From Patescibacteria group bacterium UBA6201 (lineage in GTDB: Bacteria; Patescibacteriota; Minisyncoccia; Phycocordibacterales; UBA918): 64,000 nt of DNA. The notes beneath the pieces were generated by a model. The model saw nothing but the letters and a program-made list of their open reading frames with translations, was not told the origin of the DNA and made no database searches. Below, one piece after another: positions 3,938-46,169 of the stretch. The position numbers and the translations under genes were made by a program. Each line of letters starts with the position of its first letter. Position 1 is the first letter of the stretch. The stretch spans positions 203,518 to 267,517 of the forward strand of contig DISV01000005.1 in the NCBI GenBank assembly GCA_002422025.1, read 5' to 3'.

Positions 3938-4038
3938 ATCTTGATTTGTTAGTCGGGGTAAAGCGTCCGGCGAACCGGCCGTTAGTTAAATGGTAACAGT
4001 CGGCAAATAAAGCGCAATCAACAGATGTGAGTATCCTT

Positions 4039-4086
4039 CTCTATATCATATAAGATACACCAGAGTGTATCTTATATGATATAGAG
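4039..4086. repeat. 48-bp perfect AT-rich palindrome ctctatatcatataagatacac-caga-gtgtatcttatatgatatagag
   Basis: 22-bp arms with a 4-nt centre. Related copies at 18783-18827 and 44704-44723. Confidence 0.8.
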
Positions 4087-4144
4087 AATAGTTTAGGCGA
4101 AGTGGATCTGTGAGTGTGTCTTAGTCTGATGGACTTCTGGTGGA

Positions 4145-34987: not shown

Positions 34988-35033
34988 ATAAAACAGGTTT
35001 GGTTATCATTGATGATAACCAAACCTGTTTTAC
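34988..35033. terminator. long perfect hairpin aaaacaggtttggttatcat...atgataaccaaacctgtttt
   Basis: ~20-bp stem downstream of rpmE. Confidence 0.6.
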
Positions 35034-44069: not shown

Positions 44070-44702
44070 TCACGCCAGAGATGCAAAATAACCGTTTTCT
44101 AGCATGTACTTACTGAGCACTTCATTGAAACGTTTTATATAGGAAAATTCACTGACATATTTGTCTTTAATGCTTCGGCTTTGAGAGAAGGTTACATTGT
44201 TTTGTATACAAATAGCCTTTCCATTTTCGTTTATTAAATGGAATAAAGGTTCAATTTTATCAATAGCTTTTACAAACTTCGATTCAATGGTGATTTGATC
44301 GTCATATTCCTTTAAACACGTCGATGCGGATTTTCTGATAATTTCTGGCAAAAGTTCCAACACCTCTTTCTGAGCATCATATTCCTTAGCTCTGTCAGTG
44401 TCAGTTTTTAAGTATCCAATTGTGTCACCAGTGAGAATCTCGTCTATATCGTGATAAAGAGTCATTTGTTGAATACGAGCATAATTCCAGGTATCAGTTT
44501 CCTCTAATGGTAAAAAATAATCAATTAATGCCATCATTCCATATACATGCTCTGCCACAGACTCAGTGTCTATTACTTCAGTGCGCTGATGGTGGTATCG
44601 GATGACTCGCTTCATTCTAAAGATTTCCTGAATTTTTCTGAATTCTTCCCACACAAACGTATCGTCCTCCAATATTCTTTTTCGGGTTTCTTCTAAAGTC
44701 AT
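44070..44702 (-). CDS. HD-domain phosphohydrolase (YfbR-like 5'-deoxynucleotidase family)
   Basis: ESVAEHVYGMMAL ... LYHDIDEILTGD HD motif. Confidence 0.7.
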   Translation of the reverse strand: MTLEETRKRILEDDTFVWEEFRKIQEIFRMKRVIRYHHQRTEVIDTESVAEHVYGMMALIDYFLPLEETDTWNYARIQQMTLYHDIDEILTGDTIGYLKTDTDRAKEYDAQKEVLELLPEIIRKSASTCLKEYDDQITIESKFVKAIDKIEPLFHLINENGKAICIQNNVTFSQSRSIKDKYVSEFSYIKRFNEVLSKYMLENGYFASLA

Positions 44703-44703
44703 A

Positions 44704-44723
44704 GTGTATCTTATATGATATAC
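44704..44723. repeat. half-copy (single arm) of the AT-rich palindrome: gtgtatcttatatgatatac
   Basis: Identical to the right arm at 4065-4086. Lies 1-4 nt upstream of the HD gene ATG. Confidence 0.7.
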
Positions 44724-44730
44724 GAACTAA

Positions 44731-44770
44731 TTTAGCCCTACTGTCATTGATGATAGTAGGTAGGGCTAAA
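44731..44770 (-). terminator. hairpin tttagccctact...agtag(gtag)ggctaaa
   Basis: Downstream of pepA. Confidence 0.5.
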
Positions 44771-44771
44771 T

Positions 44772-46169
44772 TTAAAACTTCTCAATTAACTTAATTAAGA
44801 GTCGTACCGGTTCACCAGTTGAACCTCTAGCCAACTTATCATGAGCGGCCGCGTCCATTCGTGGAGCGATATCAAGGTGAGCCCAGGGTACACTCTTCGG
44901 TGCAAAAAATGACAAAAAGGCACCCCCTTCAATCGCTCCCCCAAACTTTGAGAAATTTGGATGAATGTTTATTACATCGGCACGGGTCTTGGTGAGCGGC
45001 GCTTTGTGTTCATCCCAGAGTGGTAATGGCCACACATAATCTCCACTTTCTTCACCAAAAATCTTCAAAGTATCTGCCAACTTATCGTCAGTACCCATAA
45101 CGGCACTGGCTACCTGACCTAGTGCCACCAGTGAGGCACCAGTTAAAGTTGCTACATCAACAATAACTCTCGGTTCATAGCGCTTCGCATAAGATAGAGC
45201 GTCAGCCAAGATTAACCGGCCTTCAGCGTCGGTGTGAAGTACTTCAATCGTCTTACCAGAATGAGAGTTGATTATGTCTCCCGCGCGCATCGACTTTTCT
45301 GATACAGCATTTTCAGCAATTGGAATTAGTCCGATTACATTTTTCTTAAGTCCCAGCTTGGCAGCAGCTAGTATCGATAGTGCTACTGAAGAGCCACCAG
45401 ACATGTCCATATGCATTTCGTGCATTGACCCTGAAGGCTTCATATTAAGTCCACCTGTGTCGTACGTGACCCCTTTTCCAATTAATACGATTGGTTTTTC
45501 CCCGCTCTTTCCACCCTTATATTCCATAATGACAAAACGCGGCAGATCATCAGCTCCTTTCCCTACTGCCCATAGCGCGTGTAGACCCTCCTTTCTAATT
45601 CGCTTGTCGTCAAAGACCGTTACGTTAACTTTTGTGCCTTTTGCTAACTTTTGTATAGTTTCGCCAAACACTTTTGGGGTCATATCGTCTCCAGGTGTAT
45701 TGGCTATATCACGAGCTGTATTAACATACTCACCCACAGTTAAGCCGCGAGCTATTATCTTTTTATCCGACAAACCGCACAACAAAACTTCTTTAAGTAG
45801 AGTTTTATTTTCTGGCTTTGATTTGTACTTTAAGAACTCGTAGCCAGCAATGATTAGATTTTCCACCAAAGTTGAAATCACCCAATCCTGTCCGAAGGTA
45901 GTGAGTTTTGCAAATTCTTTTGCACTCGGTACATCAAGTGCTAGCAGTTCTATCTTATGACTTTGGGCAGTTCTAGCTATGTCTCGTACTATAGCTATAA
46001 ACTTTCTCGGAGTAACATCAGCTGGTTTACCTATCTTGAAACGAAGTTCAGTAGCGCCATCTTTAGTTTCAACAAAACGATGACCCTGCTTGTCTCCAAG
46101 TAAGACTAGTCGAGTGTATTTTTTTGGTGCGTCTTGTACTTTTTTGTTACTTGTCGTTACCTTCATCAT
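44772..46169 (-). CDS. pepA: leucyl aminopeptidase (M17)
   Basis: NTPGDDMTP and LHTDAEGRLILADALSYA M17 signatures. Confidence 0.85.
   Translation of the reverse strand: MMKVTTSNKKVQDAPKKYTRLVLLGDKQGHRFVETKDGATELRFKIGKPADVTPRKFIAIVRDIARTAQSHKIELLALDVPSAKEFAKLTTFGQDWVISTLVENLIIAGYEFLKYKSKPENKTLLKEVLLCGLSDKKIIARGLTVGEYVNTARDIANTPGDDMTPKVFGETIQKLAKGTKVNVTVFDDKRIRKEGLHALWAVGKGADDLPRFVIMEYKGGKSGEKPIVLIGKGVTYDTGGLNMKPSGSMHEMHMDMSGGSSVALSILAAAKLGLKKNVIGLIPIAENAVSEKSMRAGDIINSHSGKTIEVLHTDAEGRLILADALSYAKRYEPRVIVDVATLTGASLVALGQVASAVMGTDDKLADTLKIFGEESGDYVWPLPLWDEHKAPLTKTRADVINIHPNFSKFGGAIEGGAFLSFFAPKSVPWAHLDIAPRMDAAAHDKLARGSTGEPVRLLIKLIEKF

What the first reader, a model, noticed from the sequence alone, without database searches (positions are those of the whole stretch)
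4039..4086. AT-rich perfect palindrome family (core TATATCATATAAGATAC) at three gene boundaries
A 48-bp sequence with 22-bp perfect arms at 4039-4086 lies downstream of rpsP and upstream of the KH gene. A closely related palindrome at 18783-18827 lies immediately after the thrS stop. A single arm at 44704-44723 lies 1-4 nt upstream of the HD hydrolase ATG. The stems are almost pure A/T and have no U-tract, so they are poor intrinsic terminators. The sequence identity between loci suggests a specific DNA-binding protein operator (the dimer site is the full palindrome, the third locus a half-site) or a repeated RNA processing hairpin.
Basis: seen in the sequence. Interest (0 to 1): 0.5.

Follow-up and report, generated by a model that had tools for sequence, protein, structure and literature searches.

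The report
Paired protein-binding boxes in a Kaiserbacteria genome
A rare, very well conserved AT-rich palindrome sits at three gene boundaries of an uncultured Kaiserbacteria-like bacterium; each arm looks like a complete binding box for a TrpR/YerC-type DNA-binding protein, not a terminator or junk repeat, but the protein has not been linked to these boxes directly.

Summary
The window has two inverted pairs (4037-4088, 18783-18829) and one single copy (44703-44722, abutting the HD hydrolase ATG) of the unit TATATCATATAAGATA(CACT). All three are intergenic: 6 matches at up to 3 mismatches, against 0.23 expected by chance.

The window comes from a Kaiserbacteria/Paceibacterota (CPR) genome. 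Two other CPR genomes carry the same pairs, three times at matching gene boundaries. Arms are 100% conserved, the gap is exactly 10 nt, and the gap sequence is only about 50% conserved.

Each arm is itself a 14-20 bp quasi-palindrome (TATC-N6-GATA). It matches 13 of 14 bases of the box CAC-TAYCATATATGRTA-GTG. In four related lineages that box lies 2-5 nt before the ATG of a TrpR/YerC-family gene. In three of them it also lies just after the stop, and in one it occupies the same rpsP|KH spacer. Relatives without that gene at the syntenic place have no boxes. TrpR/HisR proteins are reported to bind 20-bp palindromes.

Best reading (confidence about 0.45): these are operator-type boxes for such a protein, doubled here, and the so-called half-site is a full single box over a leaderless promoter. 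Their hairpin potential and position at gene 3' ends keep a REP-like or RNA-hairpin role alive. The cognate gene lies outside the window and the link is untested.

The parts
4037..4088 (.). Double box 1: 52-bp perfect palindrome with 24-nt arms and a 4-nt centre. The 16-mer boxes are 4042-4057 and 4068-4083, 10 nt apart. It lies between the rpsP stop (4145) and the KH gene's own promoter.
   Evidence: Same element at the same spacer in L043. A different, related palindrome sits there in L062. It is absent from L059, L060 and L061.
18783..18829 (.). Double box 2: 16-mer boxes at 18786-18801 and 18812-18827, 10 nt apart. It starts 1 nt after the thrS stop, upstream of two further hairpins and a convergent gene.
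   Evidence: Identical in a second assembly of the same population (L066). Orthologous copy in L028.
44703..44722 (-). Single box: TATATCATATAAGATACACT immediately before the ATG (44700-44702) of the HD_3 / YfbR-like hydrolase. It overlaps the -10-like TAAGAT at leaderless distance and lies just after the M17 peptidase terminator hairpin (44729-44772).
3990..4017 (-). Context, not part of the repeat: the KH gene's own promoter, TTGCGC (4012-4017), 16 nt, then TGtTACCAT (3990-3998). It is conserved in relatives with or without the palindrome. This shows that double box 1 sits between two transcription units.

Best explanation
The repeat is a small family of binding boxes for a sequence-specific DNA-binding protein. 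The most likely protein is a TrpR/YerC(HisR)-family repressor encoded outside the window.

One box is a single arm, a 14-20 bp quasi-palindrome (YS-TATATCATATAAGATA-CA, core TATC-N6-GATA), sized for one dimer. In this lineage most boxes are doubled as an inverted pair with a fixed 10-nt gap, which would hold two dimers. The pairs sit at boundaries between transcription units, where the bound protein could block read-through or control the downstream unit. The single box lies over the leaderless promoter of the HD hydrolase and would repress it directly. The long hairpin the pairs can form in RNA is a secondary property and may also be used at the 3' end of the upstream message.

Shown: the anatomy, the conservation pattern, the relation to boxes flanking yerC-like genes in relatives, and the promoter context.

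Inferred: that the protein binds these boxes, that this genome encodes it, and what binding does.
For: 1. Conservation. Arms are 100% conserved while the gap sequence is about 50% conserved. The gap is exactly 10 nt in all 7 pairs (4 independent positions, 3 genomes) and is unpaired in 6 of them. That fits two duplex-DNA sites held at a fixed distance better than a hairpin loop.

2. Rarity. There are 3 sites in 64 kb here, at least 4 in MAG LejiaC_46_16 and 1 in UBA918. No other genome among 185,579 species representatives has a pair with this spacing.

3. Arm symmetry and the related box. Each arm is itself quasi-palindromic and matches 13 of 14 bases of TAYCATATATGRTA.

4. Link to the gene. 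That related box, as CAC-core-GTG (20 bp), lies 2-5 nt before the ATG of a PF01371 TrpR/YerC-family gene in all four lineages examined (L062, L130, L131/132, L133-136). There it overlaps an extended -10 (TGnTAnnnT) at leaderless distance.

5. Shared position. In L062 the same box occupies the rpsP|KH spacer, where the window has its pair.

6. Co-occurrence. Relatives without yerC after rpoC (L059, L060, L061; 66 kb in all) have no box with up to 2 mismatches.

7. Literature. TrpR and HisR (=YerC) are reported to bind 20-bp palindromes (cacTTTA-N6-TAAAgtg; TGTA-N12-TACA) and often to autoregulate (PMC9413887).

8. Promoter context. The single box covers the -10 region of the HD gene in a genome with almost no Shine-Dalgarno sites and with -10 boxes 4-11 nt before the ATG.
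Against: The cognate gene is not in the window and could not be fetched for this genome, LejiaC_46_16 or UBA918, so the link rests on relatives with a somewhat different box. The outer triplets differ: GTA..CAC here, CAC..GTG there.

The pairs are tied more tightly to the upstream stop codon (4-61 nt) than to a downstream start (21-296 nt, or none). The thrS site lies between convergent genes in two genomes.

Copies also lie just after the yerC stop, between convergent genes (L130, L131). Flanks beyond the 20-bp box stay self-complementary while differing between copies: 7 pairs changed on both sides, and 0 of 500 shuffles reach the observed score. That points to hairpin formation or a palindrome-making mutational process, not to protein contacts.

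The two boxes of a pair are 24-26 bp apart centre to centre, about 2.5 helical turns, which is not the usual same-face spacing.
Confidence: 0.45

Rival explanations
1. REP/REPIN-like extragenic palindromes: hairpin-forming repeats kept uniform by a cognate protein. Here the protein could be the yerC-like gene they flank, much as RAYT genes are flanked by REPs. They would act mainly as RNA or DNA hairpins at the 3' ends of genes, as message stabilisers or attenuators. The single copy would be a decayed pair.
For: All copies are extragenic and all pairs lie 4-61 nt after a stop codon. The architecture of pairs plus a singlet has conserved arms and a variable centre. Presence varies in the same spacer among relatives: L059, L060 and L061 are empty, L065 looks decayed, and L062 has a different palindrome. 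In those relatives the rpsP|KH spot holds other hairpins, including a canonical terminator in L061. The yerC-like gene is flanked on both sides by the box in L130, L131 and L133. Flanks covary. The genomes carry other AT-rich repeat families.
Against: Copy number is very low. Three of the four LejiaC_46_16 sites are at the same position as a site in another genome, which argues against ongoing mobility. The 10-nt unpaired gap is fixed in length, which a hairpin does not require. No Y1 (RAYT) or other transposase lies near any site. YerC-like proteins have no catalytic domain.
Confidence: 0.25
2. A purely RNA-level element: a long perfect hairpin in the 3' UTR or inter-cistronic RNA that is cut by RNase III or blocks 3'-5' exonucleases. 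This would uncouple expression of rpsP from KH-trmD, and likewise at the other sites.
For: Stable predicted hairpins of 16-24 bp. Position after stop codons. RNase III and RNase R are encoded nearby. In L017 the only arm mismatch becomes a G-U pair on the sense strand.
Against: Arm sequence is conserved 100% across genomes whose RNase R proteins are about 75% identical, with no compensatory change in the arms. This is more than structure needs. The single copy cannot form the hairpin. In L053 the wobble pairs favour the antisense strand. The loop is 10 nt and unpaired in most copies.
Confidence: 0.12
3. Promoter elements: AT-rich -10-like sequences for the downstream genes, palindromic and therefore bidirectional.
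For: The right half of each yerC-upstream box is an extended -10 at leaderless distance. The HD single box contains TAAGAT 5 nt before the ATG.
Against: Within the window-type arms the TG-preceded hexamers (TATAGA, TATACA, TATATG) lack the final T, and there is no TTGACA-like -35. KH has its own conserved promoter downstream of the pair. The sites after thrS and after yerC have no downstream gene to serve.
Confidence: 0.06

Closest known systems
TrpR / HisR (YerC) family operators
   Same: They are 20-bp palindromes bound by a dimer, often placed over the regulator's own promoter (PMC9413887). The boxes next to yerC-like genes in relatives have the same 3+4+6+4+3 layout with cac...gtg ends. 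The window's arms have the same size and a near-identical 14-nt core.
   Different: In the window the outer triplets are swapped (GTA..CAC, or TGTA..TACA), and the boxes are doubled as an inverted pair with a 10-nt gap. Most lie after stop codons rather than over promoters. No amino-acid biosynthesis genes are nearby. Binding is untested and the regulator gene was not seen for this genome.
REP / REPIN elements with RAYT
   Same: They are extragenic, hairpin-forming, and occur as pairs and singlets with conserved arms and a variable centre. They lie at the 3' ends of genes, and a protein gene is flanked by copies.
   Different: There are a few copies per genome, not tens to hundreds. Positions are conserved between genomes. 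No HUH/Y1 transposase was seen. The flanked gene encodes only a helix-turn-helix protein.
CIRCE (HrcA operator, TTAGCACTC-N9-GAGTGCTAA)
   Same: The L062 rpsP|KH palindrome TTAGCACTA-N10-TAGTGCTAA matches 8 of 9 bases in each CIRCE arm.
   Different: The spacing is 10, not 9. The invariant part of this family is the centre, which is variable in CIRCE. The other copies lack the CIRCE arms, there is no chaperone gene context, and the window's arms do not resemble CIRCE. The CIRCE consensus is recalled from memory.
Intrinsic (Rho-independent) terminators
   Same: A hairpin shortly after a stop codon.
   Different: The stem is almost pure A/T and has no U-tract. The window's ordinary terminators are G+C-rich with A/T runs. 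At thrS two further hairpins, one a canonical terminator, follow the palindrome.

Membership tests
TrpR/HisR(YerC)-family operator | About 20-bp palindrome sized for one dimer | tested here: met
   Each arm is a quasi-palindrome: TATC-N6-GATA pairs 6 of 7, and TGTA-N12-TACA pairs 8 of 10. The boxes in relatives are perfect 20-bp palindromes, CAC-TAYCATATATGRTA-GTG. Architecture taken from PMC9413887.
TrpR/HisR(YerC)-family operator | Site overlaps the promoter of regulated genes | tested here: inconclusive
   The single box overlaps the -10 region of the HD gene. The pairs lie 24 nt upstream of the KH -35, 21-69 nt before the tgt and aminotransferase ATGs, or between convergent genes.
TrpR/HisR(YerC)-family operator | A cognate TrpR-family gene in the same genome, usually with a site upstream of it | not testable with these tools
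   No PF01371 gene is present in the window or in the LejiaC_46_16 and UBA918 loci held. In relatives, all four yerC-like genes examined have the related box at their ATG.
TrpR/HisR(YerC)-family operator | Protein binds the DNA | not testable with these tools
   This needs a gel-shift or DAP-seq experiment.
REP/REPIN | Extragenic imperfect palindromes that form hairpins, as singlets and inverted pairs | tested here: met
REP/REPIN | High copy number (tens to hundreds per genome) | tested here: not met
   3 sites in 64 kb. Exact 17-mer scan of the genome collection: 4 sites in LejiaC_46_16 and 1 in UBA918. Diverged copies would be missed by that scan.
REP/REPIN | A RAYT (Y1 transposase) gene flanked by the repeats | tested here: inconclusive
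   No transposase lies near any site. Whole genomes were not available. A helix-turn-helix-only yerC-like gene is flanked by the related boxes in relatives.
Intrinsic terminator | G+C-rich stem followed by a U-tract | tested here: not met
Known RNA family (Rfam 15) | Match at or above the family's gathering score | tested here: not met
   Only generic hairpin (microRNA-precursor) matches at 18-26 bits, against thresholds of 60-108.
MITE derived from an insertion sequence | The same terminal repeats bound a full-length element somewhere | tested here: not met
   No pair of 17-mer hits at insertion-sequence spacing in 185,579 species genomes or in the viral contigs. No clear target duplication when compared with the empty site in L059.

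The most novel reading that the evidence does not exclude
A TrpR-fold helix-turn-helix protein and its palindromic boxes form a self-contained boundary system in leaderless, Shine-Dalgarno-free CPR genomes. The gene is bracketed by its own boxes. Boxes, single or doubled, are placed at the junctions of transcription units. There they work both as protein roadblocks or insulators on DNA and as hairpins on RNA. The boxes co-evolve with the protein from lineage to lineage, so the system would be a REP/RAYT-like partnership without a transposase.
Probability: 0.15. Interest if true: 0.7.

Novelty: new variant of a known kind. Interest (0 to 1): 0.45.

Why it matters
Almost nothing is known about gene regulation in CPR/Patescibacteria, which have tiny genomes and very few regulators. 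If these boxes are sites of a YerC/TrpR-type protein, they would give a first candidate regulon for that protein in this group: an HD 5'-nucleotidase-like hydrolase, KH-trmD, tgt and an aminotransferase. They would also give an unusual doubled-operator layout at gene boundaries. The idea is easy to test, because the protein is small and the site is defined to the base. The side observation that this genome appears to run on leaderless messages with extended -10 promoters is useful for annotating such genomes.

Tried and rejected
- Chance or low-complexity repeat: rejected.
- Intrinsic terminator: rejected, because the stem is A/T-rich with no U-tract.
- Known RNA family: none found.
- Phage origin: the 17-mer hits in viral contigs are single, unrelated copies with no inverted pairs. 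The L062-type 20-mer is absent from viral contigs.
- Insertion-sequence-derived MITE: no full-length element and no target duplication.
- CIRCE/HrcA: only one copy in one relative resembles it, and the conserved part is the wrong part.
- LexA/SOS box: considered because uvrB follows tgt in L053. There was no match to the motifs I recall, and the only papers found mention Patescibacteria only in their reference lists.
- Low-GC metagenome loci with ATCATATAAGATA hairpins after atpA (L052, L054-L056, L058) and L057: different flanks and context, probably chance matches of AT-rich hairpins in a very large search space. I did not use them.
- Finding the source genome: the HD hydrolase and KH proteins are not on record. 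Only a 9.6-kb contig of the same population was found through thrS (L066).
- L067, the closest RNase R relative at 91% identity, does not reach the rpsP 3' end.
- No regulator or transposase gene is among the 38 ORFs of the 64-kb window that were scanned against Pfam.

Full report
**Observation**

The three loci exist as described.
- Locus 1 is a 52-bp perfect palindrome (arms 4037-4060 and 4065-4088, 4-nt centre). It lies 56 nt after the rpsP stop and 100 nt before the ATG of a KhpA-type KH gene.
- Locus 2 has 16-nt perfect arms (18786-18801 and 18812-18827) 10 nt apart. Its TCTC flank starts 1 nt after the thrS stop.
- Locus 3 is one copy on the minus strand. The 20-mer TATATCATATAAGATACACT (44703-44722) abuts the ATG of an HD_3/YfbR-like hydrolase.

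The 17-mer core gives 6 matches at up to 3 mismatches, against 0.23 expected, and no shuffle reaches that number. No other convincing copy exists in the 64 kb. All copies are intergenic. Predicted hairpins are stable, at -34 kcal/mol and -17 to -22 kcal/mol. They are almost pure A/T with no U-tract, whereas the window's ordinary terminators are G+C-rich stems between A and T runs. No Rfam family matches.

**Origin and relatives**

RNase R homologues place the window in Candidatus Kaiserbacteria / Paceibacterota (CPR); the best hit is 91% identical. A 9.6-kb JGI contig of the same population, 99.7% identical, carries locus 2 unchanged.

An exact scan of 185,579 species genomes for the 17-mer returned mostly single chance hits. 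One Paceibacterota MAG (LejiaC_46_16) has four sites and Patescibacteria UBA918 has one, all as inverted pairs. A metagenome scan added only a UBA918-like contig, plus AT-rich hairpins in unrelated low-GC contigs that I treat as chance. That scan missed the window's own population, so it is not exhaustive.

**Anatomy across genomes**

Every pair is TATATCATATAAGATA, exactly 10 nt, then TATCTTATATGATATA. Three of the four LejiaC_46_16 sites are at the same position as a site in another genome:
- rpsP|KH, shared with the window;
- the 3' end of thrS facing a convergent filamin-like gene, shared with the window;
- FKBP|tgt, shared with UBA918.

Between orthologous sites the arms are 100% identical and the 10-nt gap is about 50% identical. 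Flanking spacer is poorly alignable, and RNase R proteins are about 75% identical. The gap is unpaired in six of seven pairs.

Read in the direction of the upstream gene, the second arm is always intact and preceded by (A/G)GTG or a close variant. The first arm carries the only defects, a mismatch in L017 and a 2-nt insertion in L019.

All pairs lie 4-61 nt after a stop codon. Distances to a downstream ATG are 21-296 nt, or there is none.

**The rpsP|KH spacer in relatives**

Three relatives, with RNase R 79%, 74% and 69% identical to the window's, have no palindrome of this family in the spacer. They have other hairpins at that spot, including a canonical terminator in L061. A closer relative (87%) has a decayed-looking remnant.

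L062 (80%) has a different perfect palindrome at exactly that place: TTAGCAC-TATCATATATGATA-GTGCTAA. A second copy lies 2 nt before the ATG of a Trp_repressor-family (PF01371) gene. Its 14-nt core differs from the window's arm core, TATCATATAAGATA, at one base. So each arm of the window's palindrome is itself a TATC-N6-GATA quasi-palindrome.

**The yerC-like gene**

I searched homologues of that gene and fetched their contigs.
- In all four lineages seen (L062, L130, L131/132, L133-136) the box CAC-TAYCATATATGRTA-GTG, or a close variant, lies 2-5 nt before the ATG. Its right half forms an extended -10 (TGnTAGTGT, TGnTAGTAT or TGnTAATAT) at leaderless distance.
- In the three lineages where the 3' side is visible, another copy lies 9-17 nt after the stop.
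- Further copies lie in the rpsP|KH spacer (L062) and between a Na/H exchanger gene and a UvrD-like gene (L130).

The proteins pass the Pfam threshold for Trp_repressor, weakly match the YerC/YecD model, and match solved TrpR-like structures 3FRW, 3G1C and 3KOR. Relatives that lack this gene after rpoC (L059-L061, 66 kb) have no box with up to 2 mismatches.

According to PMC9413887, TrpR and HisR (=YerC) bind 20-bp palindromes (cacTTTA-N6-TAAAgtg; TGTA-N12-TACA) and often have a site before their own gene. The boxes in the relatives share that 3+4+6+4+3 layout and the cac..gtg ends. The window's arms have the same size and fit the TGTA-N12-TACA frame, pairing 8 of 10.

**Promoter context**

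The window has almost no Shine-Dalgarno sites: 1 of 48 genes, against 4.1 expected at random. Half the genes have a TAnnnT hexamer ending 4-11 nt before the ATG (24 against 6.6 expected), often preceded by TGn. The genome therefore looks largely leaderless.

The single box lies over this region of the HD gene. KH has its own conserved promoter (TTGCGC at 4012-4017, TGtTACCAT at 3990-3998) just downstream of pair 1. So that pair sits between two transcription units.

**Interpretation**

The best-supported reading is that the arms are boxes for a sequence-specific DNA-binding protein, most likely a TrpR/YerC-family repressor. The boxes are doubled in this lineage, and the single copy is a complete operator over the HD promoter. 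Four things speak for protein recognition of duplex DNA rather than structure alone:
- perfect arm conservation;
- the fixed but unpaired gap;
- the low copy number;
- co-occurrence with the yerC-like gene in relatives.

I put this at about 0.45, for these reasons:
- The cognate gene could not be seen for any genome with the window-type box.
- The outer triplets differ from the yerC-linked boxes.
- The pairs track stop codons better than start codons.
- One position lies between convergent genes.
- Copies also follow the yerC stop.
- Among nine single boxes, flanks beyond the 20-bp core stay self-complementary while differing between copies: 7 pairs are changed on both sides, and 0 of 500 shuffles reach the observed score.

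The last point indicates selection for hairpin formation, or a mutational process that perfects palindromes.

The main rival is therefore a REP/REPIN-like hairpin family acting at 3' ends (0.25). Next comes a purely RNA-level processing or stabilising hairpin (0.12), then promoter elements (0.06). These readings are not mutually exclusive, since a protein box that also folds in the upstream message could serve both roles.

**Novelty and verdict**

I found no description of such boxes, or of YerC-type regulation, in CPR bacteria in the searchable literature. The kind of element is known: palindromic operators and extragenic palindromes. The doubled layout at gene boundaries and the bracketing of the regulator gene are unusual. 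I rate it a new variant of a known kind, of moderate interest. Fetching the complete genomes and running one gel-shift experiment would test it.

Noticed in passing
whole window (gene starts listed): The genome looks largely leaderless. Of 48 genes, 1 has a Shine-Dalgarno-like site (4.1 expected at random), 24 have a TAnnnT hexamer ending 4-11 nt before the ATG (6.6 expected), and 9 have TGnTAnnnT within 30 nt (1.2 expected).
   Followed up: partly
window 3938-4017 (- strand): The KH (khpA-like) gene has its own conserved promoter: TTGCGC, 16 nt, then TGtTACCAT, followed by a roughly 50-nt leader. It is conserved in L043, L059, L060, L062 and L065, whether or not the palindrome is present.
   Followed up: partly
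window 10787-10866; L059 8971-9064, 16451-16551, 17533-17607: A second AT-rich inverted-repeat family built from TTCGAAATT / AATTTCGAA units. In the window it lies in the rnc|nusB spacer. In a relative it lies in the same spacer and two others.
   Followed up: no
window 34989-35032 and 44738-44759; L028 6960-6990: Palindromes with the core T(A/G)TCATTGATGATA, related to the box core but with TG at the centre. They form the apex of terminator-like hairpins after rpmE, after the M17 peptidase gene, and between dnaE and thrS in L028.
   Followed up: no
window 17033-18781: thrS is a 582-aa long-form ThrRS (100% identical to P0121). It is only 44% identical to the 404-410-aa ThrRS at the same syntenic place after dnaE in relatives, which suggests replacement by a foreign copy. 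The palindrome after the gene is retained in both types.
   Followed up: partly
window 18970-18994 compared with L028: A hairpin downstream of thrS keeps its pairing through compensatory changes between the two genomes (GGC..GCC against GGT..ACC). It could be a small structured RNA or part of a 3' UTR.
   Followed up: no
L131 1702-4502: In one relative the yerC-like gene sits next to a reverse transcriptase (RVT_1) and a bAvd-like gene, which looks like a diversity-generating retroelement.
   Followed up: no
L112 5057-5075 and 5928-5946; L126 7775-7793: Two related phage contigs carry a repeated intergenic GGTATATCATATAAGATACC with conserved flanks, in direct orientation. It contains the same 17-mer, probably by coincidence. 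The host is unknown.
   Followed up: partly
window 11000-11893: One ORF combines NusB and NUDIX domains. The fusion is conserved in relatives L059-L062.
   Followed up: no
L052, L054, L055, L056, L058: Low-GC (32%) metagenome contigs have a hairpin, TAAATCATATAAGATA-N10-inverted copy, 8 nt after atpA and before a tRNA-Met/Gly cluster. The gene order suggests a plastid-like or very small genome. I treated the hairpin as a chance resemblance.
   Followed up: partly
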